A stretch of DNA of 64,000 bases. Origin: an uncultured Alphaproteobacteria bacterium (lineage in GTDB: Bacteria > Pseudomonadota > Alphaproteobacteria > Sphingomonadales > Sphingomonadaceae). The DNA lies in assembly GCA_963850005.1 (NCBI GenBank), contig CAWKJG010000001.1, positions 351,523-415,522 on the forward strand, in the 5' to 3' direction. Each line of letters opens with the position of its first letter. Within the stretch, counting starts at the first letter, position 1. Under the pieces are notes generated by a model. It had not been told where the DNA came from and did no database searches. It was given only the letters and a program-made list of their open reading frames with translations. Shown here one piece after another: positions 21,501 to 34,021 of the stretch. A program made the translations under genes and the position numbers.

Positions 21501-22242
21501 TTCGAGCGCCTGCCCAAGCCGGACATCATTGCCGCGGCGCAGGCTGTCTCCGATCAGTCCGAGGGCACGGATTAGTTCAACGACGACATACCAGCCGATC
21601 CTGCTCTCCGGCTGCGCATCATCGGCTTCGGCATCATCGAGAGGGCCAAAGGCGGTGTCGGGCTTCTCTTCGGCGGGTTCGTCAGTTTCCAGGTCGGCAT
21701 CGTCATTCTCCAGCAGTGATGCGGATCCCTCCCGGCCAGTGAGGGCTTCATTGTCGATCCAGAACGCAACCGAGCGTTCTAGCAGCCGGTCGAAGTCGGC
21801 ACCGAGGAACGAGGCGAAGATCTCTGCGACACCGCCGCCATAGCCGCCCTGGCGAAGTAAACTCGTCGCCATCGCGGGTAATCCGGCGAGCTGGTAGGCT
21901 CCTGCCGCGAGCAGGGTTACAGGCACCTCTCGCGTGACGATGTCCGAAGACCGGGCCAGCCATTCAAGCAACTCGGCCGCGCGCCGATAGCAGCCGATCG
22001 AATTCTGGAGAGCCTTCTCCGTCGATTTCGCGAAAGATGTGGGCGGCGTGTAGGAGCCTCCGAGCATCCGCAAATTGCTCATTCGATTCCCGGAGGTCCC
22101 AAGCGATTGGGGGCACTTGCCACGATGTCTGCAGGCTGCGGACGAATAGCCGGGCTTGTGCTGGTGTGAGCTCATTCTCCGCAGCCCGATTGAAGCGGAG
22201 ATTCATAGCCAAGGCACGGCGCTGCTCGTCGAGCCGCGCCAT
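18543..22242 (-). CDS. hamB: Ski2-like DEAD/DEAH helicase, Hachiman HamB-like; +1 frameshift at ~22001
   Basis: PTGSGKT, IIDEAH, LTA, SHGQM, ATATLTEGVNLP, NLAGRAGRPG; N-terminus in the 21964-22242 ORF joins after removing one base (1232 aa); TGATG overlap with hamA. Confidence 0.8.
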
Positions 22243-23190
22243 CAGAGAGGGTTCCAGAGCGATCGATACAGCCGCTCGATGAGATCGACGCCGCCTTCGA
22301 CCACCAGTTCGACGACCTGGAGGGGGCGTCCCGCCGTATATTCAGGCGGTGGCGCCACCATGGGTAAATAAGCTTCGCCGGGCGCGCGTCGCTTAGCTCG
22401 GTTCCCAGCGACAAAGACCAGGTCAGTGCGAGGAAGCGGTGCTGCCCCGAGCAGCAGAACGCGATCGAGCGACACGATCGCTTCGGCATACTGATCGCGC
22501 GCCTTCTCACAGAGGAGACGATGAATTTGCTCGAGGCCTTGGGGCGTGGGCAGGCCTCGGTTCATCTCGTTCCAGACGCCATCATTGCCGCGGACCCGGG
22601 CATTCGCCGGCCCGGACATTTCGCCCAGCATTATGTCGTTCATCTTGCTGGGCGTCAGGGTCGCTCGCCATTTGGCTTCGCCGGCGATAAATCTCACCAC
22701 CTGGCCCGTCGTCGAAATCGATCCCTAGCGCGATGAAGTCGTTTCCGTGCCGGCCAGACACCTGTCGAACGCGCGCCGGATCCCGCGCCAGTTCGAAGAT
22801 ATAATCGCCGACTTCCGCGTGGTAACGGAACAGGAAAATCGGGATCGTCCATTGGTGCCCGCCGACGAACTGATAGGCTTGGGTCATGAGACCCGCCATA
22901 ACTTCCCCGAACAGGCCCTTCTTCGCGGTCGGCGGAAGACAATTCGGATAGCATGCATTGCCGCCGGGAGCGCCGGCGTCGGGATGCAAATCAATTCGGG
23001 CAGCCCGGTGAAACACCTCGCGCGCATCCAAATGTGCCAATTCGAAATAAGGACGGAGTTCGGCGACCCCGGCATCGTCGAGCGGGGCTGTCTGTTCAAA
23101 CAGCAGATGCCCGTAATTGCCGTTGACTTGCGCAGCGCCGCGCAGCCAGCGGTTCAGCAGCGGCATAGGCGGCGGGCAGTTATGGAGCAT
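22242..23190 (-). CDS. hamA: PD-(D/E)XK nuclease, Hachiman HamA (DUF1837)-like; +1 frameshift at ~22715
   Basis: KKGLFGEVMA...GRHGNDFIAL...FIAGEAKWR across two frames; one-base removal gives 315 aa; directly upstream of the helicase. Confidence 0.72.
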
Positions 23191-23388: not shown

Positions 23389-23682
23389 TCAACGAGCTCG
23401 CTCGAGCAGCTCTTCCAGTCGCGCCGCATCCCGGCGTAGCTTGGTCGCGATTTTGGCTAACTCTTCCAGTCGGGGCGGGGCGGGGCGCTTCTCGGTAGAA
23501 TCTGGATTCCATCGTGCCAATGCCCTTGTGGCCTTATCGCTCAGAGGGACCTTGCCAGCGACAATCTTGCTGTAATGTCCTTGCGTCATGTTGCAGGCGG
23601 CGGCGAGCCCGGCCTGCGACCAGCCAGCCTCGCGCCGTTTCCGATCGATTTCCAGGATAAAATCAGAAGGGGTGCTTTTCAT
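23389..23682 (-). CDS. XRE-family HTH transcriptional regulator
   Basis: RKRREAGWSQAGLAAACNMTQGHYSKIVAG. Confidence 0.85.
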   Translation of the reverse strand: MKSTPSDFILEIDRKRREAGWSQAGLAAACNMTQGHYSKIVAGKVPLSDKATRALARWNPDSTEKRPAPPRLEELAKIATKLRRDAARLEELLERAR

Positions 23683-23687
23683 CGTGG

Positions 23688-23717
23688 TTTATGTAATGCA
23701 TAATATGCATACATAAA
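23688..23717. promoter_or_regulatory. palindromic operator in the 45-bp divergent intergenic gap
   Basis: TTTATGT-A-ATGCATA-A-TATGCAT-ACATAAA near-perfect inverted repeat, followed by RBS AAGGAG of the glycosylase gene. Confidence 0.75.
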
Positions 23718-23727
23718 TAAAGGAGCA

Positions 23728-24558
23728 ATGATGCAGGAGTCGATCGCCCTCATCGGAGGGAGCCTACGAAAGCTCCTGCTACCCCCGCCTGGGGTCCAGT
23801 TGATGCCGGGCATATTCTGGGGACAGCACGACGAGCTGTTCACGCCGGCTTACTGGGCGGCGCAAACCTGGATGTGCGAGGAGGAGAGCCCTCGGCACTA
23901 CTGCCTCGGGCGCACGCTCGAGGAGGAAGTCCTGGCCTGCCTTTTAGGCGGGCACGGCATTCCCGCCGAGGTTGGGCTGGCGGCCTATCAGCGTATCCGC
24001 GAGATTATTCATGCATCGCCCCACCTGTTGGGCCAGGCGGAGGAAATTGAGCTAGAGCTGCTTCGGCCGCTGGAAGTCGGGGGTCGCCAAATCCGGTATC
24101 GCTTTGCGCGTCAGAAAGCACGCTATGTCGCAGCAGCCAGAAAATCCCTCGCGCTACTGGACGAAAGCGTTCTTTCCGATCGCGAGCTTCGCGCGGCGTT
24201 GATGGGCATCCCCGGTATCGGCCCGAAGACATCGGCGTGGGTGGTTCGCAACTGGCGGGGAAGCGACCAAGTTGCGATCGTTGACGTCCATATCCTTCGC
24301 GCCGGACGGATCCTCGGGATATTCGATGAGGGTCAAACTCCCGAGCGCCACTATATGGAGCTCGAGCGAAGCTTTCTGGCCTTCGCCAAAGCCGCTGGGA
24401 TCAAGGCGTCCATCCTCAACTCCGTGATGTGGATGACGATGCGGCGCTTACCTTCGTCGCTGGTCAGCACTCAGCTGCGACATTTATCGAAGTCGAGGTC
24501 GAGGCATATAGCGCGAGTCGGAATATTCGAGTCGGAAGGGGCTATCGCCAGCGCCTGA
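23728..24558 (+). CDS. HhH-GPD / 8-oxoguanine-type DNA glycosylase
   Basis: RYRFARQKA, HhH LMGIPGIGPKTSAW with Lys, IVDVHILR with catalytic Asp, L(N)SVMW. Confidence 0.88.
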   Translation: MMQESIALIGGSLRKLLLPPPGVQLMPGIFWGQHDELFTPAYWAAQTWMCEEESPRHYCLGRTLEEEVLACLLGGHGIPAEVGLAAYQRIREIIHASPHLLGQAEEIELELLRPLEVGGRQIRYRFARQKARYVAAARKSLALLDESVLSDRELRAALMGIPGIGPKTSAWVVRNWRGSDQVAIVDVHILRAGRILGIFDEGQTPERHYMELERSFLAFAKAAGIKASILNSVMWMTMRRLPSSLVSTQLRHLSKSRSRHIARVGIFESEGAIASA

Positions 24559-24601
24559 GCATACTTAATCTTCAAGCCTGCTATTGTGCAGGAGGCGAAG
24601 A

Positions 24602-24994
24602 ATGTCGGGTACCGAGACGGACCGCGATGACAATGACTCTGGTAAGTCCCGGGGGAAATCCAAGAAGGCGGGCGCCGGGACCGGTGCCGGTTCGGGCGGC
24701 GGAGGGGAAGCCGGGGACGATTTCTGCGATATTCGGGAGCCAGCGCCGCTCAACAGCCCGAAGCCTGCAGTCGTCGAGCAGCTGAAGGTGCATGACGTAC
24801 TCAAAGTGGTCGCGGATCAAAGTGGCGATCGCCCGATTCTCAAGGTTGTGGACTCGAGCGGGAATGAAGCTGGGTCGCTCACGCATCGCAATCATGCGGC
24901 CATTCTCGACTGCATTGAGCTCGGCAACAGCTACATCGCCACGGTGATCGAGAAGGCAGGCGGTGCGGTGACGGTTCTGATCGAGCGCGCATGA
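24602..24994 (+). CDS. small protein: Gly/Ser-rich disordered N-terminus plus HIRAN-like domain
   Basis: MSGT...GAGTGAGSGGGGEAG; then LKVHDVLKV...LKVVDSSG..AGSL...ILDCIELGNSYIATV, resembling the HIRAN pattern. Confidence 0.65.
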   Translation: MSGTETDRDDNDSGKSRGKSKKAGAGTGAGSGGGGEAGDDFCDIREPAPLNSPKPAVVEQLKVHDVLKVVADQSGDRPILKVVDSSGNEAGSLTHRNHAAILDCIELGNSYIATVIEKAGGAVTVLIERA

Positions 24995-26178
24995 CGACAG
25001 TAGTTGGCGGCGTTTACGCCGAGCGATGCATCGATCCTTTCTGGGATGACGTCTACGGGTCCGGTGGAAGGGCGGCGGCCGCGCTTTCGGGGCACGTCGA
25101 TGTGAGGCTCCAGACCTACCGCGGCGAAGGCCTCCTCGATGGCGTGGCAAACCTCGAGCGCGTTTACGGCTTCACGGCTGACGGACCGATCGTGTCGGGC
25201 TCGATTACGTTCGACTATATCCATCCGCTCTCCGTGCCTCGAATTCGGCGCATGGGTGATGAAGCTCTGAAGGGGGCCGACCTGACGGTTGAGGATGATG
25301 TGGTTTTGTGCTTCGGCATGCTCGAAGGCGGAGCGACCGTGACGGCCGACCGGGCGGTTTATGACCCACAATCGGCGTCCGACCCGAAGCCCTTTGGAGA
25401 GTTGGGCTCTAAGGCTCGAGAGCTGGCGATCTGCTGCAACATGTTCGAGGCGAGGAAGCTGACCGGCGAGGCGGATCCCGAGCGCGCGGCGAGCGCCTTA
25501 GCGGCTGCCGAGAAGGCCGCCGTGGTACTCATCAAGATGGGGGGCAAGGGCGCGCTGGTGTGGACCCAAGGGTGTGCGGCTGTTGTCCCGGCATACCGGG
25601 CGCCTGCCGTCTGGAAGCTCGGGTCGGGCGACGTTTTCTCGGCGGCCTTCACGCTTTTCTGGGCTCTCGAAGGACGATCTCCGGTCGAGGCCGCCGACTT
25701 GGCGTCCCGCGCCGTCAGAACTTACTGCAACACGCGCGCTTTGCCGATGCCCTCGGCCGGCGAGTTGCTCGCCTTGGAGCTGGAGCCAGCGCGCCAGGCG
25801 GCGGGTCGCGTCTATCTTGCCTCGCCGATGTTTGATCTAGGCCAGCGCTTGGTGGTGGAAGAGGCGCGCGATCATCTTCTGGCGATGGGTTTGGGCGTAT
25901 TTTCGCCTCTGCATGATGTGGGGCCCGGGCCCGGCCACGTCGTGGCGCCCCTGGATTTGCAGGGAATCGACGAGTGTCATGCGGTTCTGGCTATTTTGAA
26001 TGGCAGCGATCCCGGGACCATCTTCGAGGTTGGCTACGCCGTGGCCAAAGGCATTCCCGTGGTCGCGCTGGCCCAGAACGTTAAGCCCGAGGATCTGAAG
26101 ATGGTGGAGGGCTCCGGCTGCATAATCGTGAGCGACTTTGTCTCCGCTCTCTATAATGTGGCTTGGGCACTCCCGTGA
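24991..26178 (+). CDS. PfkB/ribokinase-like kinase fused to a nucleoside 2-deoxyribosyltransferase (NDT) domain
   Basis: IKMGGKG and LGSGDVF (PfkB anion hole); C-terminal YLASPMF...FSP..D...DPGTIFEVGYAVAKGIPV (NDT/MilB/DNPH1 type). Confidence 0.88.
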   Translation: MTTVVGGVYAERCIDPFWDDVYGSGGRAAAALSGHVDVRLQTYRGEGLLDGVANLERVYGFTADGPIVSGSITFDYIHPLSVPRIRRMGDEALKGADLTVEDDVVLCFGMLEGGATVTADRAVYDPQSASDPKPFGELGSKARELAICCNMFEARKLTGEADPERAASALAAAEKAAVVLIKMGGKGALVWTQGCAAVVPAYRAPAVWKLGSGDVFSAAFTLFWALEGRSPVEAADLASRAVRTYCNTRALPMPSAGELLALELEPARQAAGRVYLASPMFDLGQRLVVEEARDHLLAMGLGVFSPLHDVGPGPGHVVAPLDLQGIDECHAVLAILNGSDPGTIFEVGYAVAKGIPVVALAQNVKPEDLKMVEGSGCIIVSDFVSALYNVAWALP

Positions 26179-26771
26179 ACGAGGCCATCCTGCTCTCTGG
26201 CGGGGTCAACTCTATCGCCTTGGCGTTCTTGCGGCGACCTGAGACGGCATTCACTATCGATTACGGTCAGCGCGCGGCTGAAGCCGAGATCGCGGCGAGT
26301 TCTGCGGTCGCACAGGCGCTGGGACTGCGTCACGACGTCTTACGTGTGGATTGCTCCAGTCTTGGTTCCGGGAAGATGGCGGGGTCCGTGGCGCTGAAGG
26401 AGGCGCCGATCGTCGAATGGTGGCCGTACCGCAATCAGTTCATCGTGACGGTCGCTGCGATGCGGGCAATCGCGATCGGCGCTAGACGGCTCCTTGTCGG
26501 GAGCGTGGCGAGCGACGCCTCGCATCGCGACGGGACTGAGGGCTTCTTTGCCAGGCTCAGCGATCTCCTTGCCTATCAGGAAGGGGGTTTGACGGTCGAG
26601 GCGCCGGCGCTGGACTTGTCGACGGTTGAGCTCGTTCGGCGATCGGGGGTTCCGCGGGATCTGCTGGCCTGGTCGCATTCGTGCCATGTCGGGAATTTCG
26701 CATGTGGGCACTGCCCAGGCTGCGTGAAGCACTATTATGTGATGCAGGAGCTATATGGAATCGCTTACTGA
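26175..26771 (+). CDS. QueC-like PP-loop ATPase
   Basis: LLSGGV(N)S, IDYGQR, PYRNQF, H.D, WSCH...CGHCPGC Zn motif; GTGA overlap with the upstream gene; short (198 aa). Confidence 0.88.
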   Translation: MNEAILLSGGVNSIALAFLRRPETAFTIDYGQRAAEAEIAASSAVAQALGLRHDVLRVDCSSLGSGKMAGSVALKEAPIVEWWPYRNQFIVTVAAMRAIAIGARRLLVGSVASDASHRDGTEGFFARLSDLLAYQEGGLTVEAPALDLSTVELVRRSGVPRDLLAWSHSCHVGNFACGHCPGCVKHYYVMQELYGIAY

Positions 26772-27432
26772 GCCGGCGCCTCGGTTGCCGCCTGGTGAAT
26801 TCGAGCCCTATTGTTTGGTCGGGGCGGAGATTATTCTTCCTGTGCCACAGGCGGCGGCGTCGCTACCGTTCGAAGATGTTCTGGCTCAAAGAAGGTCCTG
26901 CACTGGGGGTCCACTGGCCCTTGAGAGGCTTGCGGCGCTGCTCTGGCATGCGGCCCGGGTTCGGGAGCGCCACTCGTCCGGGCGCTTTGGTTTGAGCTGG
27001 GACCAAAGGGCGGGGCCTTCGGCCGGCGGGTTGCACGTCATTCAACTAATGTGTCTTCCGCTGGAGGATGGCGGTCAGGCGGGTGTCTACGATCCTCTTG
27101 GGCACATGCTGGTCGATTCGGGCGTCGGCGCGTGTGGCCGCTCGACAAACCGGCAGCTCATTCGGACGTTGACCGGAGCCACGAGCGGAACCGCCATCTG
27201 GTTCGCGTCGAACGATCGAAAGGCTGAGGCCTGCTATGAGAATAGCCGAAGCCTCGTTTTGCGCGATTCAGGCGCGCTTGCCGCCACCCTCGGACTTTGC
27301 GCTGCCTGGTTGGGCATCGCCGCGTGTACGCTTGGCGCGCTCGGGGAAGGGATGCCGACGGCATTTGGGTTCCCCGAGAAGCATTTTACCGCCGTCGGGG
27401 GCATCCTCGTCGGAGAACCGGGCGGCGAGTGA
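26755..27432 (+). CDS. SagB/ThcOx-like nitroreductase-fold oxidase
   Basis: VLAQRRS, R..PSAGGLH, LVLRDSG...ATL.L.A..LG...C.LG. Confidence 0.82.
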   Translation: MESLTEPAPRLPPGEFEPYCLVGAEIILPVPQAAASLPFEDVLAQRRSCTGGPLALERLAALLWHAARVRERHSSGRFGLSWDQRAGPSAGGLHVIQLMCLPLEDGGQAGVYDPLGHMLVDSGVGACGRSTNRQLIRTLTGATSGTAIWFASNDRKAEACYENSRSLVLRDSGALAATLGLCAAWLGIAACTLGALGEGMPTAFGFPEKHFTAVGGILVGEPGGE

Positions 27433-27498: not shown

Positions 27499-30400
27499 TC
27501 ACTTATCTCGGTGTTTTGCTGGTTTGCTCCGTCGACCCTGTCTTGCAGCTGCTGATGTAGCGTTTTTATCTAGGCTCTTGGGTTCAGTCCTCAATTCGAA
27601 CTTGGGCTCAGGCCCGATCGTCAACCCCCCAATGGTCTGCAGGAACTTTCCGAGACGGGCATAGCTCAAGCGAACATGGGGCAGCGTCGGGCCGGGGAAG
27701 CGTGCGCGGAGGTAAGACCCCATATTGGCCTGATCTAACGGGCGGCCTCGTGTCTCGGCGAGGCGTACCTTGTCGAGAATGTCTTCCCGCAAAACGTCGA
27801 TGAGAGACTGGTCAATTGAAGATTTGTCTTGGCCCGCGACGCGCATTGCATCGGCCAAGGCCTTACGCCGATCCTTTCGATTGACGCTTGTGGTCGGTGC
27901 TTTTGCGGAGGCCGTAACACTGACCGGACCCTGTCGTTTGGCGGACGCCGACGCCTTCGTCGAAACCGCCCGTTTGTTCGGCGTCTGCGGAGGCTTCGCC
28001 TCATGCCGGCTATTAGCCGGTTTAGACTTTCGCGCCGGGTCGGTCGCGGCAGGACCGGAGCTTTTGTCGGAAGCGGCTTTAGTGCGCGGCCCGGACTGGG
28101 GATTTATGCGAGGGGGAAGCGGCAAACGTCCTAGAATAGGCTCATTAGAAAGAACGGCGCGAGCCCCTGCCCCTCCGCCCCGCACGGCGAGGCCATCTAT
28201 ATGGTTCACGAGATCTCGAATGTTCTTAGCCCCAAGCGACTGAAGCAAGGGAGTGACCGTACGGAAGTGCGTTTCAAGCTCCGTCCGGAGCCGATCGAGC
28301 GCGACCCCATCGACACGCGAGTTGGCGACGGTGGCCAGCAGATAATCCGTTACGGCAACCTCGAGACGGTCTTCGGCCAGTGGCCCTAGGGGCGTTAGGA
28401 CTTTCACGTCGAGACCGATGATCCCCCGCGCCACACCCCCTTTTTCGTTTTTGCTAGGACTGAAGGTCACGAGTGGGCCCGCGGCGGTGCATGCCTTTCT
28501 GTGGTTTGGGTGAACCAGCTCGCGGTTGAACCAATAGCTTTCGCCGTCGGGCGTCTCGACGAAACCGAAGTTCTTCTGAGCATCGAACATGACGATCTTG
28601 CCGTAGGAGCGCGGTACTCCTTGCGGTTGCACGTCGGCGACGATTTCAGGTGGCGGGTTTTTCGGCTGAAGTTTTCGAGCCTTGCCGCGCCCCCGGACCT
28701 CGAAGTCGCCGCCGGCTGTCACTACTGCGGCTAGGTCTTTGATGCCTAAAAGTTCGGCCGCTCCCGACGCTTTCATCAATGCGTCGAGCCGGTTCTCCAA
28801 CTCCTCGACAGTGATCGAGGCTCCTATCCTAGCCTTTGCGCGCGCCAATTCTCTGACGAAGCGAAGCGCGCGCACTTCGCGTAGCTTCCTGGCTCGTTCG
28901 GTCTTCAAGTTGGCGGGGGCGGGCGTCTCCTCCACTTCGATGGTAACCGAGCCGGGCTCGATTTGCGTCGGCTTTGCCCGATCCGCATTTGCCACGTGTC
29001 CCGCTTTGACCGACCAGGCACGGAGCCCGCCAGGGCTGAATCCGAGGAAGAAGTGGACTCGCGTATTCTCGTTTCTGTGGGCCGAGAATGTCTTCCCCGG
29101 AACGAAGAAAGCGCGCACCTTACCGCCGATCAGGATCGTGCCCGCTTGCGGACCGTTCACGCGATCGACGATACCGTTGACCGGGCGCAGGCTGCCGGGA
29201 GATTTGAAGAAATTTTTCTCATTGCTCCAGCCTCCCAGGTCGTCCTCGGAAACGAGTCCGGAACCATCCTGGGATCCGCCGCACCACAAAGCGGACGCAT
29301 TCTTGCGACCGACGTGCCGCCGGGTGCAATTCTCGAGAGCCTGCTCGTATTTGCTCGTATCGTCCGTGCGGCGGGCGAACCAGAGCATGAAGTGTAGCAC
29401 GTAACTGTAATAGTAAGAGCGCCACGAAGGGAAACGCTTCGCCCAGAGCGCGAGCTGCGCAAGAGCTTCATCGGCGTCGAACTCTGGCAAGAGTATATAA
29501 GCATTGAACCACAAGCGATAATCGTCGTCTCTGCGGTCGCCCTCCCGCAAATTCTCTTCCATGAGCTGTACGATGCGCCGCAACTCAGGAAGCTGAAGCC
29601 CGGCCCATCGCCGCTTGTTTCTTACAAAATAAGCGTTCGCAAGGGCCCGCCGGCTTCGGGCGCCGCTCGCTACCGAGGCAGTAGCAAGCTCCCAAATCTC
29701 CACGACGCTATCGAGATCGCCATAGAGCTGATCCAGATCGGCTTCGCAGGCGAGAAGGTACTGGTTTGAAGTATCGAGGGTGCCGTAGAGCTGAGTTGCA
29801 TCGCGCAGCAGTTGCTCTGCCAGCGACAGATTTTCCGTAAGCCAGTTTCCTATGGGGCCGTCATCGAGTCCGACCCGGGCGATCGTGTCTTCCTTCACCG
29901 ACAGCTTGAGGCGTTGTGCTGCGCTGACTATCATTTGGATGTGCGTAATGTAGCCATAGACGTCGTCGGCACTAAGCAGGCGTGTTTGCTCAAATTCGGC
30001 GGCTGCGCGATCGAACAGGGGGTTCAGAGCCGAAAAAATGCTGGCTATGTCCGAATCACGAGAGAGTGACTTGAGAGTTTGGCGAAGTCGCGATCGTAAA
30101 ACCAGTCCGAAGGTGTGGTGATGCAGCGGATCGTCCTGGTCGAGCGCAATCGCACGCTCGAGATACTCTTCTGCCTTCTCGTAATCACGGTCTACTCGGT
30201 ATACTTGGTGCCTGCCGAGGTGACTCCAAAAGTGCGATACTTCTGGACTTTCCTGAGCCAGGTATTCGAGAACCGCGTGTCCGAGGGAAGGGTCTAACGA
30301 GTCCAGCTCTTCGATGATGGGCGCAAAATCCTGGCGATCTTCGGCGCCATCCGCGCTCCACATCCTATCGACGAACATCTGCCGGAACAGAGTTCGCATT

Positions 30401-33326
30401 GCCTCAGGCCCAGCAGCGGCAACGGTGTCTCTTATGAACGAGATACTATAAGGCTTAAGGTCGAGCCGCCACTCGTCCGGCGCGCCGCCTTGAAAATGGG
30501 TCAGCACCTTTTCGGCAATGATCTGGTGCATGAACCGGACGCCGCCGCCGCGGGTGATGAGCAGACGGGCCGGGCCGTCTCCCAGGATATCGGCGATAGG
30601 AAGCTCGCTGGTGGGATCAACGTCCATCAAGACTTTTACGAGCGGCACGGGAAGGCCCCCGTTCGAAAAGATCGTGACGATGGCGAGGTGCTCGAGCAGG
30701 TTTCGAATCTCGATGCGTACACCGGCCACGTGTCTTTCGACGATATTTGTCGATCCCGATGAAATCGTGCTCGAAAGTGATGAGGCCAAAGAAGAAGGGG
30801 ACCCGATAACGCTCGAGCGTTTTTTGCTCGGCTATTTTCGTGAGCTCTTTTCTCCGACGTTGATCGGAAGTGAGGCTCTTATAGGCCTTCAGAAAGCCCT
30901 GTGTCTCGGTGTTACTCAAAGAACTGATTAGATCAAGAGGATTACCTTTTGACGCGCCGAAAGTGCGCCGCAGATACAGGAGGACCACCCGACAGTTGTG
31001 TTGGGCAAGATAGCGGTGCAGCTCCTCGCGAGCAGTCTCCGTAAGGTCGGCCCCCTCAGCCAGCAGGAGTACGGGTCTTTCCGCAAACTGAAACAGTTCT
31101 CGAATGCGTTCCGGGAGCGCATCTGAGTATTTGTGGAGCACGGCCACCGGGTGACGGGTGCGAAGGTCCCACACGGCGCGCAGAGCGGCCGTGGTGCCGC
31201 CGGCCCCGGGCGTGTGCTCCAGTACGACCGTATTGTTTCGGTGCGCGTCCAACCGTTCCTCGAGGATGCGCAAAAGCTCGGTGTGACCTTCGCGCTCGAT
31301 GTCAATTCCGGCATGCAGTTCCGCCCAGGTCGGTGGCCGCCCTCGCCAGAACTCCGACGTCAGCTCTGGAGAAGGTTCCGGTTGCTCGTCGAGAATTGCG
31401 GAGTGCAGGACGTGCAAATTCTCTTGGATCGTTCTGAGCAGCTCGACAGGGAGGGTCCGGGTCTCGCCTTCTGGCCCGGGAACTTGAGCTTCACGAGCCG
31501 AGAAAGCGGTGCCGAAAGTCGCCAGGACATGAGCGACGAATGCGCTCGGCTCGAGCGGTACACAGGAGAGTCGCGTTGCGGTTTCGCTTATGGCCCGATC
31601 ACCAAGCAAATGGATTATCGCGCGTCCGCGAGTCGCCTCGTCGATAACTCCAATAATTCTCCCGATGCGGGCTCCAGGCGAGGAAGAATCGAGGGTGGCG
31701 CCGGGTAGCACGATTGCGTGGATGGGCTCCGGGCTCGTTGCATCTGCGATTGATCGGACAAAGTCCCGCACGACCGAGGCACGTTCCCACCGCCAGGCGT
31801 GATAATCGGGGAAATACTCGCTTTTCGCCGACCATCCCCCTGCCATCATCCATCCGGTGCCCCTTTTGAAGTCGACCACCGGTGGGTTTGACGTGAACAG
31901 GTGGATAGCTCTTCGAAGAGCCAAAAGCGGCGCTGCTTCCCTATGGAGACCATCGTTGTCCGACGCTGGATCAAGGTCAATGACAGCCGTCCAAGGCAGT
32001 TGTCCCAAAGCTCGCACATCAACTTTAAGCCGCTCTGCAACAAGAATAAACTTTGCGCGGGCGGGGTCGAAATCCACTCGTGGCTTGCCACAGCTCATTC
32101 CACAATTCGTCGTCGCCCCGCTCGGCCGCGGTGGCCTTTTTCGACTTGCTGGTGAGCGAGGCCCAAAGCGCGGGCTCATGGTCTTGCAGATACCTGCGGG
32201 CTGCCCAGCCTGCGTAGCAAAGAGCGGCGATGCGCCAGGAGTCCCTGATCGGCTTGTTCGCCCAATTGATGCCGGCCGCTACTCGGCAGAGAGCAAACTG
32301 TCGATCGATTTGGTCTGCGCGATGAGGCTGTGCTTGCGTGCGCCACCGGAGCAGCGCAGCCCGCATGTCCTCAATGACGGATTTGGTCCAAAATGCGCGT
32401 CCAGGCGGCGGGTGAGGGTCGTCTGGATCTTCGGCGGCTCTCAATGCGCCGATAAGAAATGCGGGGTCCTCGTCACCGAGCGCAGCCAGCGCATGTGACA
32501 GCTCCAGGTAGGCGGCGTCGTAGCCGACGACCCCTTCTCGAGCGAGCGCGAAGTCGATCACATAGAAAGGGTGCTCACCAGGCCGAGCCCGGTGCAGCAA
32601 GATATTCCCTCCATGTAAATCGCCGTGAACCAGGCCGCGAAGTGTCGGTGCCGATTCCAGGTTCTGCTCACCGAGCAATCCCACGAACCTCAGGGGGTTG
32701 ATCAGTACCTCACCGCCTTCGATAAAGAGAAGCTCAGCGCAATAACCGGCGACGAACTGATGCAGTCGCGGTGCGTCGGTGTCGGTGAGCCGGTATCCGC
32801 AAAGATCCAGCATGAGATCGGCGGGGGTCGTATCTACCCCGGGCTCGGGGTCCGCCCAGGCAAATAAAAGTGCCTCCGTGATCGACCCGGCGCACTTTTG
32901 AAAGTTACCATCCTCCCGTTCATCGGCTGGGGCGAAGCGGTCGAGGCTTCCTCCTGCAATCTCGAACAGCATCGCGTAACCGCGCTCCCGCACAGCCGCA
33001 AATTCTTGCGGAAAGGAGGCGATCAGCGGCGGCAGATGCTCTTTCGCGAACTCGGGATTTCTTTCGAAAGACCGCGAATGTGCTTGGAATTCTGGTGCGT
33101 CGTCAGGCCAAGGGGATGGCGGGCTCAGCTTCAGAATGTGGACCCCTGGCGCAATTTTATCCTTCGAGTGTCTTACGTCCGCTTTGAAGAGGGTCGAACC
33201 GGAGTAGCCTCCGCTCAGTGGATTTAGCTGGACGGTCGCCCCGGGTGCCCATTCGCTAAAAGCGTCGACCACAAGCGCCTTGAGTTTGTCATCATCCGGA
33301 AGCCCGGTGATCATAGATTCCCCCAT
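27499..33326 (-). CDS. ~1940-aa kinase + SAMD9-like (SIR2-like, STAND, TPR, OB) + CSD/OST-HTH protein; +1 frameshifts at ~32071 and ~30743
   Basis: GGYSGS, ILK, HGDLHGGNIL, IDFAL kinase motifs; WTAVIDLDPAS, WRWERASVVR, EFWRG...W, HTPGAGGTT, PVLLL SAMD9-type motifs; TPRs; CSD YGKIVMFD..KNFGFV; removing 2 bases gives one 1941-aa ORF. Confidence 0.82.
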
Positions 33327-34021
33327 ACCGGATTGCTTCCGGGACTGATCACCCACTCGTTTATGGGGGTGAGGGTCAATGATTCGCCACGGGGCGGCTG
33401 AATACAAGGGAAAAACAGCTAATCGCGAAAGCAAGCGCTAGTGCATCGTGACTTGTATGAAGGAGGTGCAGTGCCTTTATGAAATGTGGGCCCGGTCTCT
33501 TGGCCTTTAAACGAATTACTTTTCGCCTCGGATCACGATAGCCAGCGGCGTTGTGAGGTTTTTCAATCGATCGAGCTGGGCTCCGGACGAGGTGACAACC
33601 GCTCTGTCCGCCTCGCGGCTGGTTTGAGGTGATGTAGCCGAGTAGAACGGTCCATCATGGCATCGTCACCTTTGCACGGGGCACTCGCTGTAAAAGCCCA
33701 CCGCCAGCCTGGCTTGCCTAGGGGCCAACACAAGCGTAGTTTCCGCTCGCCGTCGGAGTCTTGAACAGCTTTGGCGGTGCACCACGCGTGCCGAGCACGG
33801 TCCGCTCATGTCGGGCGGCCCACGAAATACAATAGCCTCACGGCGAATACGTGGGGCGACCTGCCTCGTGCTCGGTCGTGTTCAACCACCCGGCTCCCGG
33901 GTGGCGGTGCTGAGCACGGGGCTGGAGCGCGCTTCAATACACGGCTCTCTCTCGTCCCCATTCGCCCCGCATTCGGGGAGACGCCGTCGGCTGCCCGCCG
34001 TCGGCCAGCGAGGGACCGTGG

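What the first reader, a model, noticed from the sequence alone, without database searches (positions are those of the whole stretch)
23389..27432. Candidate undescribed nucleobase-chemistry defence operon: HhH glycosylase, Gly-rich/HIRAN protein, PfkB-NDT fusion, QueC-like protein and SagB-like oxidase beside an XRE switch
Seen: five same-strand genes, the last four overlapping (ATGA at 24991, GTGA at 26175, 17-bp overlap at 26755), inside a defence-laden Tn7-like element. A 30-bp palindrome and a divergent XRE gene lie upstream. Established: QueC paralogs occur in QatABCD and, with an OGG-type glycosylase, in type IV CBASS; in both, QueC is reported to attach a deazaguanine base to the N-terminus of a partner protein. 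NDT-fold enzymes (MilB, DNPH1) release bases from nucleotides; PfkB enzymes phosphorylate nucleosides or sugars; SagB-fold enzymes are FMN oxidases; HIRAN binds DNA 3' ends. This operon lacks a CD-NTase, TGT, QatA and TatD, so it matches no named system I know. Inference: the NDT/PfkB fusion supplies or recycles a modified base, QueC and the oxidase activate it, and the small protein with a flexible MSG-start tail is the acceptor. Alternatively the glycosylase excises modified bases from phage DNA.
Basis: partly seen in the sequence, partly recalled or inferred. Interest (0 to 1): 0.85.

Follow-up and report, generated by a model that had tools for sequence, protein, structure and literature searches.

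The report
QueC–HIRAN nucleobase-tagging defence cassette
This is a real, widely spread and mobile five-gene cassette that most likely attaches a modified nucleobase to the start of a small DNA-end-binding protein as part of an untested anti-phage system, and it may use chemistry not yet seen in known relatives.

Summary
Five co-directional genes, with the stated overlaps, encode an Ogg2-like glycosylase, a small Gly-rich/HIRAN-fold protein, a PfkB–NDT fusion, a QueC-like protein and a SagB-like flavoprotein. A divergent XRE gene and a 30-bp palindrome lie upstream.

The small-protein/PfkB–NDT/QueC core recurs in 165 fetched loci from many phyla, with unconserved flanks. It is absent from 60 relatives. 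It sits on Tn7-like elements, 37 plasmids, prophages and islands next to Hachiman, Gabija, dGTPase, DRT and TIR genes.

The small protein starts almost invariably with M-S-G, followed by a disordered Gly-rich tail. This matches the acceptor layout of CdnD (type IV CBASS) and QatB, except that Ser replaces Gly.

The SagB-like protein's closest solved relatives are azoline oxidases. When it is present, residue 2 is Ser/Thr in 119 of 120 cases. Gly/Ala occur only without it. This is suggestive but phylogenetically underpowered.

Best reading: a third branch of QueC-based N-terminal nucleobase conjugation immunity, with NDT replacing TGT.

Libby et al. 2026 already noted the QueC–PfkB/NDT linkage ("Cluster 4") but read it as purine salvage. 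No experiment exists.

The window copy carries D→N changes at two invariant residues, both at would-be GANTC sites. These may be base-calling errors.

The parts
23389..23682 (-). XRE-family HTH regulator, divergent from the operon
   Evidence: HTH_3 3.3e-8. A divergent XRE homologue is found in 37 of the first 80 loci.
23688..23717 (.). 30-nt imperfect palindrome (TTTATGTAATGCATAATATGCATACATAAA), the likely XRE operator, overlapping a promoter-like site
   Evidence: Inverted repeats. A promoter-like site lies at 23676-23704. An ATGCAT-N-ATGCAT palindrome is conserved in the XRE/OGG intergenic region of most type-A loci.
23728..24558 (+). Ogg2-like HhH DNA glycosylase/lyase with a family-specific ~120-aa N-terminal region
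   Evidence: PF22175 1.2e-13. The family profile matches archaeal-type Ogg structures 9o00/3fhf/3knt at 1.8e-16 to 1.9e-13. K167 (GPK), D186 and H188 are invariant in the family. The window copy deviates at D231N and A169S/S170A.
24602..24994 (+). Small acceptor/sensor protein: M-S-G N-terminus, ~40-aa disordered Gly-rich tail, C-terminal HIRAN-fold domain
   Evidence: AGGAGG RBS. The N-terminal MSG is conserved in 162 homologues. In the AF2 model, residues 1-40 have pLDDT 55-60 and residues 41-130 have pLDDT above 90. Foldseek top hits are 3k2y and the HLTF HIRAN domain, probability 1.0.
24991..26178 (+). PfkB-type kinase fused to a nucleoside 2-deoxyribosyltransferase-fold domain
   Evidence: PF00294 and PF05014. 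More than 1000 90%-identity clusters have E<=1e-3. Invariant residues: NxxE (N150, E153), GSGD (G211-D214), and the NDT motif Y275/D340/G342/T343/E346. PDB profile hits are NDTs and ribokinases.
26175..26771 (+). QueC-family PP-loop ATPase, PF06508 'Cluster 4'
   Evidence: PF06508 2e-19 and PADLOC QueC 1.2e-14. The signature CH(x)5CxxCxGCxK is present. The family profile hits Cap9 9nto at 3.5e-15 and QueC 2pg3 at 6.1e-15. The window copy reads SGGVNS where 150 of 151 homologues have D.
26755..27432 (+). SagB-like FMN dehydrogenase (azoline-oxidase clade of the nitroreductase superfamily)
   Evidence: TIGR03605 4.9e-11. Profile against PDB: ThcOx/CyaGox 7.9e-14, BmdC 5e-10, McbC 5e-3. AF2 pLDDT is 94.8. 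Foldseek top hit is ThcOx with TM 0.80, followed by BmdC and McbC.

Best explanation
The cassette is a self-contained, horizontally mobile, XRE-regulated conflict (most likely anti-phage) system. It forms a third branch of QueC-family 'N-terminal nucleobase conjugation' immunity, beside type IV CBASS (Cap9) and QatABCD (QatC).

Proposed steps, with their basis:
1. Inferred from sequence rules: Met1 of the small HIRAN-fold protein is removed, exposing Ser2.
2. Inferred by homology to Cap9; the reaction is shown only for Cap9: the Cluster-4 QueC-like enzyme uses ATP to join a carboxy-deazapurine, probably the queuosine intermediate CDG, to that alpha-amine.
3. Inferred: a second ATP-dependent activation of the new amide, like QueC's amide-to-nitrile step, lets the Ser/Thr hydroxyl close an oxazoline. 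The SagB-like FMN enzyme then oxidises it to an oxazole.
4. Speculative: the PfkB-NDT fusion takes the place of the TGT-like Cap10. It is a base-exchange enzyme that could put a deoxyribose on the free N9 of the tethered base, and the kinase half could phosphorylate the product.
5. Speculative: the HIRAN domain reads DNA 3' ends as the infection cue or target. The Ogg-like glycosylase reverses or executes the DNA-directed step.

The XRE protein represses the operon through the ATGCAT palindrome.
For: Linkage:
- The small-protein/PfkB-NDT/QueC core is present in all complete loci of the 165 fetched. SagB is in about 80% and OGG in about 90%.

Mobility and defence context:
- Flanks are unconserved. 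Of 676 flanking ORFs, the commonest family occurs in only 9 of 79 loci.
- Only 1 of 61 related genomes has it, and 0 of 36 in the same genus.
- The window copy is Tn7-like cargo next to HamB.
- 37 plasmids carry it, 19 of them conjugative.
- It occurs in prophage or P2-like contexts.
- Immediate neighbours include GajB, dGTPase, a DRT reverse transcriptase and methyltransferases. In Citrobacter, E. coli and P. aeruginosa they include an anti-phage dGTPase, an AAA ATPase with a helicase, and a TIR protein.

Acceptor features:
- M1 and G3 are conserved in at least 93% of 162 small proteins. Residue 2 is a small residue: Ser/Thr in 130 of the 145 scored, Ala/Gly in 14, Pro in 1.
- A disordered Gly-rich tail follows.
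- This mirrors the MGGS tail of CdnD and the MGTS tail of QatB.

QueC:
- Cap9 is the best PDB sequence match.
- The host has a canonical QueC.

SagB:
- The nearest solved relatives by sequence and by fold are the azoline oxidases ThcOx, BmdC and McbC.
- With SagB present, residue 2 is S in 115 cases, T in 4 and P in 1. Without SagB it is A in 7, G in 7, S in 10 and T in 1.

HIRAN fold.

Catalytic motifs of the kinase, the NDT domain and the Ogg Lys/Asp pair are invariant.
Against: - No experiment exists for any member.
- PADLOC models of known and candidate systems hit only QueC.
- The only published reading is purine salvage.
- The Ser/Thr-SagB association rests on about 6 independent gains or losses, and the sign test is not significant.
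- Ser also occurs in SagB-less cassettes, and one SagB+ locus reads M-P-S.
- No YcaO-type cyclodehydratase is present, so cyclisation by QueC is conjecture.
- The QueC substrate pocket differs from QueC/Cap9: YPDC becomes H-A-D-G. The ligand may therefore not be CDG.
- No obvious killing effector is identified.
- The window copy has N at the invariant PP-loop Asp. If that is real, this copy may be inactive.
Confidence: 0.55

Rival explanations
1. DNA-directed base-modification/restriction module. The enzymes make or exchange a modified purine in DNA. The Ogg-like glycosylase then acts as a restriction-type effector on unmodified or foreign-modified DNA, and the HIRAN protein acts as a DNA-end adaptor.
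For: OGG is present in about 90% of loci, with invariant catalytic Lys/Asp. In 31 of 165 loci, and in E. coli, Citrobacter and P. aeruginosa, OGG forms an operon with a Dam-like adenine methylase, an R-M-like pairing. HIRAN is a DNA 3'-end binder. NDT is a base-exchange fold.
Against: The three-gene core survives without OGG or a methylase (L082/L083, L112, L114, L150). No TGT/DpdA-like DNA transglycosylase is present. This reading does not explain the invariant N-terminus and flexible tail of the small protein.
Confidence: 0.15
2. Small-molecule purine or deazapurine nucleoside salvage/metabolism, the published reading of PF06508 Cluster 4.
For: PfkB kinases, NDT-fold enzymes and QueC are all classically small-molecule enzymes. 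Libby et al. propose purine salvage.
Against: The cassette is found in 1 of 61 related genomes. It travels on Tn7-like elements, plasmids and prophages, in defence islands. It is obligately linked to a HIRAN-fold protein with an invariant N-terminus and to a DNA glycosylase. It shows XRE-type control with a conserved operator.
Confidence: 0.1
3. Function that benefits the mobile element itself (anti-restriction, DNA-end protection or addiction) rather than host immunity.
For: The cassette is carried by Tn7-like transposons, conjugative plasmids, a bona fide phage genome region between head and portal genes, and P2-like elements.
Against: Defence systems show the same carriage pattern. No complete isolated phage of 50,697 records has it. 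It lies beside known defence genes rather than transfer or replication genes.
Confidence: 0.1
4. RiPP-like natural-product pathway. The small protein would be a precursor whose N-terminal segment becomes a nucleobase-azole peptide.
For: There is a SagB-type azoline-oxidase relative and a conserved Ser/Thr site, plus an ATP-dependent ligase.
Against: No protease, exporter or YcaO occurs in any conserved position. The best-conserved part apart from the first three residues is a folded HIRAN domain, not a leader peptide.
Confidence: 0.05

Closest known systems
Type IV CBASS accessory module (Cap9 QueC-like, Cap10 TGT-like, Cap11 OGG-like) acting on the CD-NTase N-terminus (Wassarman et al., bioRxiv 10.1101/2025.04.06.647259)
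   Same: Both have a small (~200 aa) QueC-family enzyme; Cap9 is the best PDB sequence match. Both have an OGG-type glycosylase in the operon. Both have a partner protein with a Met-excisable start and a Gly-rich flexible tail. Both include a base-exchange-type enzyme.
   Different: There is no CD-NTase, no TGT and no cyclic-nucleotide effector. The acceptor is a HIRAN-fold protein starting with Ser, not Gly. A PfkB-NDT fusion stands where Cap10 would be. A SagB-like oxidase is added. PADLOC OGG/CBASS models do not hit the glycosylase.
QatABCD (QatB-QatC core; PMC13279940, PMC13639016, PMC13376578)
   Same: Both pair a QueC-family protein with a partner that has a long disordered N-terminus and an essential extreme N-terminal motif (MGTS against MSG). 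In both, a minimal two- or three-gene core is sufficient or conserved.
   Different: QatC is about 400 aa with extensions and a remodelled active site. QatB is alpha-helical. QatA (KAP NTPase) and QatD (TatD) are absent here.
PF06508 'Cluster 4' of Libby, de Crecy-Lagard, Hutinet et al. 2026 (PMC13329287)
   Same: This is the same QueC subfamily: CH(x)5CxxCxGCxK, YGQ...E, 89% next to a PF00294-PF05014 fusion, HTH_3 in 31% and a nitroreductase in 23%.
   Different: It was published as a probable purine-salvage function. That paper does not mention the small HIRAN protein, the OGG glycosylase, the N-terminal motif, mobile or defence context, or azoline-oxidase affinity.
Azoline oxidases of TOMM, cyanobactin and NRPS pathways (SagB/McbC, ThcOx, BmdC)
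   Same: They are the nearest relatives of the fifth gene by sequence profile and by fold. A Ser/Thr sits at the proposed site of action.
   Different: No YcaO or Cy cyclodehydratase is present. The substrate would be a protein N-terminus acylated by a nucleobase, which has no precedent.

Membership tests
Type IV CBASS | CD-NTase (cGAS/DncV-like nucleotidyltransferase) in the operon | tested here: not met
   None of the five genes has such a domain. No conserved flanking family exists across 79 loci.
Type IV CBASS | Cap9-type QueC-like enzyme | tested here: met
   PF06508 2e-19 and PADLOC QueC 1.2e-14. The profile hits Cap9 9nto at 3.5e-15.
Type IV CBASS | Cap10 TGT-like protein | tested here: not met
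   No TGT domain in the operon. A PfkB-NDT fusion occupies that place.
QatABCD | QatA KAP-NTPase and QatD TatD nuclease | tested here: not met
   No such Pfam or PADLOC hits in the operon.
QatABCD | QatC: ~400-aa QueC with N- and C-terminal extensions and a C(x)19CGxCxxRR zinc motif | tested here: not met
   The protein is 198 aa with CHVGNFACGHCPGCVK.
PF06508 Cluster 4 (Libby et al. 2026) | C-terminal CH(x)5CxxCxGCxK plus an N-terminal SGGxDS and YGQ...E | tested here: met
   The Cys motif and YGQ...E are present. The family has SGGxDS in 150 of 151 members, while the window copy reads SGGVNS.
PF06508 Cluster 4 (Libby et al. 2026) | Adjacent PF00294-PF05014 fusion gene in the operon | tested here: met
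   A GTGA overlap joins it to the PfkB-NDT gene.
QueC-type N-terminal deazaguanylation substrates (CdnD, QatB) | Conserved extreme N-terminal motif with a Met-excisable residue 2, followed by a long disordered tail, encoded beside the QueC gene | tested here: met
   MSG start conserved. M1 and G3 are conserved in at least 93% of 162 proteins, with a disordered tail of about 40 aa.
QueC-type N-terminal deazaguanylation substrates (CdnD, QatB) | N-terminal glycine as acceptor | tested here: not met
   Residue 2 is Ser/Thr in 130 of 145 proteins. Gly occurs only in 7 SagB-less cassettes.
QueC-type N-terminal deazaguanylation substrates (CdnD, QatB) | Covalent +176 Da 7-amido-7-deazaguanine on the N-terminus | not testable with these tools
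   This needs mass spectrometry.
HIRAN domain | HIRAN beta-rich fold | tested here: met
   Foldseek: 3k2y at E 1e-3 with TM (target) 0.73; HLTF HIRAN 4xzg/4s0n/6kcs at probability 1.0.
HIRAN domain | Sequence match to the HIRAN family model, or binding of a DNA 3'-OH end | tested here: not met
   No Pfam hit and no PDB sequence hit. DNA binding was not testable.
SagB/TOMM-type azoline dehydrogenase | FMN nitroreductase fold closest to azoline oxidases | tested here: met
   (ThcOx TM 0.80; BmdC; McbC). TIGR03605 matches at 4.9e-11 but below its cut-off.
SagB/TOMM-type azoline dehydrogenase | Partner cyclodehydratase (YcaO or Cy domain) and the Lys-Tyr active-site motif | tested here: inconclusive
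   No YcaO occurs in any locus. Tyr161 is invariant, but the preceding Lys is not conserved.

The most novel reading that the evidence does not exclude
The Cluster-4 QueC enzyme both ligates a carboxy-deazapurine to the N-terminal Ser/Thr of the HIRAN protein and cyclodehydrates the new amide. The SagB-like oxidase then aromatises it, giving a nucleobase-oxazole protein N-terminus, a new post-translational modification. Next, the NDT domain glycosylates the free N9, possibly exchanging the 3'-terminal base of a DNA end held by the HIRAN domain. That would tether the protein to phage DNA, and the Ogg-like glycosylase would undo the link.
Probability: 0.15. Interest if true: 0.95.

Novelty: new variant of a known kind. 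Interest (0 to 1): 0.78.

Why it matters
Protein deazaguanylation was discovered only in 2025, and its downstream target is still unknown.

This cassette is a widespread third context for a QueC-family ligase. It has more than 1000 protein clusters, spans many phyla, reaches archaeal megaplasmids, and occurs in 10 of 5,426 complete E. coli genomes.

Its partner genes name plausible next steps: a deoxyribosyl-transfer/kinase enzyme, a DNA-end-binding acceptor, a DNA glycosylase and an azoline-type oxidase. It could therefore reveal what nucleobase-tagged proteins are for. It may also show a new heterocycle-forming protein modification.

It would also correct a published 'purine salvage' annotation. 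Native E. coli copies make it directly testable in K-12.

Tried and rejected
Searches that found nothing:
- PADLOC scan of all six proteins: only QueC hit.
- PDB sequence search with the small-protein profile: nothing meaningful.
- Earlier-findings look-up by sequence: nothing.
- tblastn against 50,697 phage records: no match.
- Megablast of the P2-like three-gene variant against E. coli genomes: no match.
- Literature searches for HIRAN+QueC and for PfkB+NDT+anti-phage: only Libby et al..

Tests that were inconclusive or blocked:
- The phylogenetically independent test of SagB against Ser/Thr was underpowered, with 5-6 pairs and p about 0.5.
- GANTC is only moderately depleted in the window, so wholesale miscalling is excluded. 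The AANTC/GANTC ratio is anomalous, but biological GANTC avoidance could also explain it.

Readings considered and set aside:
- A canonical salvage reading, a RiPP reading and a Dpd-like DNA modification system. No TGT/DpdA is present.


Full report
OBSERVATION.

The ORF map and sequence confirm the genes:
- a divergent XRE gene, 23389-23682 (-)
- OGG-like, 23728-24558
- a small protein starting at ATG 24602, seven nt after AGGAGG, and ending at 24994
- a PfkB-NDT fusion, 24991-26178
- QueC-like, 26175 (GTG)-26771
- SagB-like, 26755-27432

The ATGA, GTGA and 17-nt overlaps are as stated. The 45-bp XRE/OGG spacer holds a 30-nt imperfect palindrome at 23688-23717, overlapping the only promoter-like site in the region.

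Domain calls:
- HTH_3, Ogg-HhH, PfkB + Nuc_deoxyrib_tr and QueC (Pfam)
- a SagB-family peptide dehydrogenase model at 4.9e-11, below its curated cut-off (NCBIfam)
- PADLOC 2023 recognises only the QueC protein

CONSERVATION.

The PfkB-NDT fusion has more than 1000 90%-identity clusters at E<=1e-3. I fetched 79 loci from species genomes, 6 from IMG/VR and 80 from metagenomes.

Profile searches of their ORFs gave these results:
- The trio small protein / PfkB-NDT / QueC is present in every locus not cut by a contig end.
- SagB is present in about 80% and OGG in about 90%.
- Two main layouts occur. Layout A is XRE<- ->OGG-small-PfkBNDT-QueC-SagB, as in the window. Layout B is small-PfkBNDT-QueC-SagB-> <-OGG.
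- Minimal three-gene forms exist (L082/L083, L112, L114, L150).
- Hosts span Alpha-, Beta- and Gammaproteobacteria, Myxococcota, Geobacter, Acidobacteriota, Planctomycetota, Bacteroidota, Spirochaetia and Deinococcus. Haloarchaeal megaplasmids carry homologues of the fusion.

MOBILITY AND CONTEXT.

- Flanks are not conserved. Of 676 flanking ORFs, the commonest family occurs in 9 of 79 loci.
- Only the window's genome among 61 relatives has the fusion, and none of 36 other species of the genus does.
- In the window it is cargo of a Tn7-like element with TnsA, TnsB, TniB and TniQ. It lies directly beside a HamB helicase.
- TnsB-like genes, integrases and Mrr-type nucleases recur in other flanks.
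- Among 124 immediate neighbours, PADLOC at E<=1e-8 finds type II methyltransferases (8), GajB (3, E 1e-227), dGTPase (3) and a DRT reverse transcriptase (3). That is at least about 14% of neighbours. One review estimates that 1.5% of bacterial genes are defence genes (abstract listed). I computed no formal background.
- 37 plasmids carry it, 19 of them conjugative.
- In a Citrobacter plasmid, in 10 of 5,426 complete E. coli genomes (up to 100% identical to the plasmid copy) and in a P. aeruginosa megaplasmid, the cassette lies in integrase-bounded islands. Its neighbours there are an annotated anti-phage dGTPase, an AAA ATPase with a helicase, or a TIR protein.
- One IMG/VR contig is a true phage genome region, with the cassette between head, portal and terminase genes and a DNA polymerase.
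- Two IMG/VR contigs are P2-like, with the cassette next to the repressor.
- No isolated phage record has it.

This pattern fits an accessory conflict system. It does not fit housekeeping salvage.

THE SMALL PROTEIN.

- Across 162 homologues, M1 and G3 are conserved in at least 93%. Residue 2 is Ser in the large majority of proteins.
- A Gly-rich segment of variable length and an 85-aa domain follow.
- AF2 with a 61-sequence alignment gives a disordered segment at residues 1-40 and a confident domain, pLDDT above 90.
- The best PDB fold matches of that domain are a bacterial HIRAN protein (3k2y) and the HLTF HIRAN domain, alone and bound to DNA, at probability 1.0. No sequence-level hit exists.
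- The layout matches the two known QueC acceptors. It has a fixed extreme N-terminus, a residue 2 that allows Met removal, a long flexible tail, and a gene beside a QueC gene. CdnD starts MGGSGGS and carries the base on Gly2. QatB starts MGTS and needs that motif.

THE QueC-LIKE PROTEIN.

- It carries the exact signature of PF06508 'Cluster 4' (CH(x)5CxxCxGCxK). Libby et al. 2026 reported that cluster as 89% adjacent to PF00294-PF05014 fusions and read it as purine salvage.
- Their Table S2 also lists HTH_3 (31%) and Nitroreductase (23%). It does not list the glycosylase or the small protein.
- The family profile matches Cap9 and canonical QueC about equally.
- It keeps the P-loop, YGQ...E, RN, the Asp of YPDC and the zinc cysteines.

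THE SagB-LIKE PROTEIN.

- By sequence profile, its nearest solved relatives are ThcOx/CyaGox (7.9e-14), BmdC (5e-10) and, more weakly, McbC.
- By fold they are ThcOx (TM 0.80, rmsd 2.9), BmdC and McbC. All of these oxidise azolines to azoles.
- I scored 145 small-protein/cassette pairs:

| SagB | Ser | Thr | Pro | Ala | Gly |
|---|---|---|---|---|---|
| present | 115 | 4 | 1 | 0 | 0 |
| absent | 10 | 1 | 0 | 7 | 7 |

- Gly/Ala are therefore seen only without SagB. On the PfkB-NDT tree, however, SagB changes only about 6 times, and the independent-pairs sign test is not significant. The association is a lead, not a result.
- It suggests the following route. The QueC-made amide on Ser/Thr is cyclised and then oxidised to an oxazole. 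The cyclisation is plausibly done by QueC itself, whose normal second step is ATP-dependent activation of an amide. No YcaO is present.

PfkB-NDT AND OGG.

- The kinase motifs (NxxE, GSGD) and the NDT motifs (YxAxPxF, DxGTxxExG) are invariant. PDB relatives are NDTs and ribokinases.
- NDT is a base-exchange enzyme on deoxyribose. TGT/Cap10 is a base-exchange enzyme on RNA or DNA. Wassarman et al. note that the free N9 of the conjugated base could receive a ribose, and that Cap11/OGG could reverse a transfer. I therefore read PfkB-NDT as the functional stand-in for Cap10. This is inference.
- The glycosylase is Ogg2-like, with an invariant Lys/Asp pair.
- In 31 of 165 loci it forms an operon with a Dam-like methylase.
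- A dGTPase-like HD gene abuts the cassette, or lies within 2 kb of it, in 17 of 165 loci in varied positions. It also does so in the enterobacterial islands. Its product, deoxyguanosine, would be a natural NDT donor. This may reflect a functional link or plain island co-residence.

THE WINDOW'S OWN COPY.

- It deviates from otherwise invariant residues. QueC has D12N, where 150 of 151 homologues have Asp. OGG has D231N, where 134 of 134 have Asp, and also A169S/S170A.
- Both D-to-N codons read AAC-TCN, where GAC-TCN would form GANTC, the CcrM site.
- In the window, the AANTC:GANTC ratio is 1.27, against 0.40-0.76 for comparable motifs. GANTC itself is still frequent.
- So these are either methylation-linked miscalls or real, possibly inactivating, changes.

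REGULATION.

An ATGCAT-N-ATGCAT palindrome is conserved between XRE and OGG in most layout-A loci of different genera. This supports XRE control of the operon.

VERDICT.

Most likely (about 0.55), this is an anti-phage-type system built on QueC-dependent nucleobase conjugation to the N-terminus of a HIRAN-fold protein. The oxazole step (about 0.3) and the NDT/OGG roles (about 0.2) are inferred.

The rivals are:
- a DNA modification/restriction module (0.15)
- salvage metabolism (0.10)
- an element-selfish function (0.10)
- a RiPP-like pathway (0.05)

It is not a member of type IV CBASS or Qat, because defining components are absent. It is a member of the published, uncharacterised QueC Cluster 4. 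I rate it a new variant of a known kind.

Noticed in passing
window 26208-26210 and 24418-24420: Two Asp residues that are invariant in the families read Asn in the window: QueC D12N and OGG D231N. Both occur as AAC-TCN, where GAC-TCN would be a GANTC (CcrM) site. The AANTC/GANTC ratio in the window is 1.27, against 0.40-0.76 for control motifs. These are either possible methylation-linked base-calling errors or real inactivating changes.
   Followed up: partly
window 22242-23190 and 27499-33434: The gene upstream of HamB (HamA-like) and the large NLR-like gene downstream are each split into overlapping ORFs. This suggests frameshifts, from assembly errors or decay. No GANTC lies in two of the three overlap zones.
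   Followed up: partly
L003, L009, L040, L112, L114, L122, L126, L158 and others; L166 13346-14710; L168 14704-16068: A dGTPase-like HD/HD_assoc gene abuts the cassette or lies within 2 kb of it in 17 of 165 loci. Its position and orientation vary. It is also present in the E. coli and Citrobacter islands. This may be a functional partner (deoxyguanosine supply for NDT) or mere defence-island co-residence.
   Followed up: partly
L049-L076 and L086-L163 subsets; L166 12252-12920; L167 12240-12917: In 31 of 165 loci, mainly Gamma- and Betaproteobacteria including E. coli and P. aeruginosa, a Dam-like D12-class adenine methylase overlaps the end of the OGG gene. The two form a convergent two-gene operon.
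   Followed up: partly
L058, L064, L074, L081, L156; L069 9798-10763; L050 9901-11916: A SagB-less clade duplicates the small-protein/PfkB-NDT pair after QueC; the second small protein starts MGG in four of these five loci and MSG in L081. It is followed by an FRG-domain protein in L074 and L156. Other SagB-less loci have a patatin-like phospholipase or a GHKL-type ATPase directly downstream.
   Followed up: partly
L084 (IMG/VR), L082/L083 (IMG/VR): In L084 the cassette is embedded in a genuine phage genome region, between major head/portal/terminase genes and a DNA polymerase. In L082/L083 the three-gene form lies in P2-like elements beside the repressor and the replication nickase.
   Followed up: partly
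L106 3486-3893: An IS5-family transposase fragment occupies the place of the SagB gene between QueC and OGG. This looks like a recent loss.
   Followed up: no
plasmids NC_012030.1 and NZ_CP019068.1: Haloarchaeal megaplasmids (Halorubrum lacusprofundi, Halorientalis) encode full-length PfkB-NDT homologues at 34-39% identity. The family therefore crosses domains.
   Followed up: no
own genome G000: A canonical QueC is present (C6:217127-217798, 242 bits). No QueD/PTPS (PF01242) match was found in the 93%-complete assembly.
   Followed up: no
L112 8289-10456, L114 1073-3216: In two low-GC metagenome loci, the three-gene core and the dGTPase-like gene are flanked by a DUF2779 protein and an unassigned ~230-aa protein, in swapped order. 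This may be a larger conserved island.
   Followed up: no
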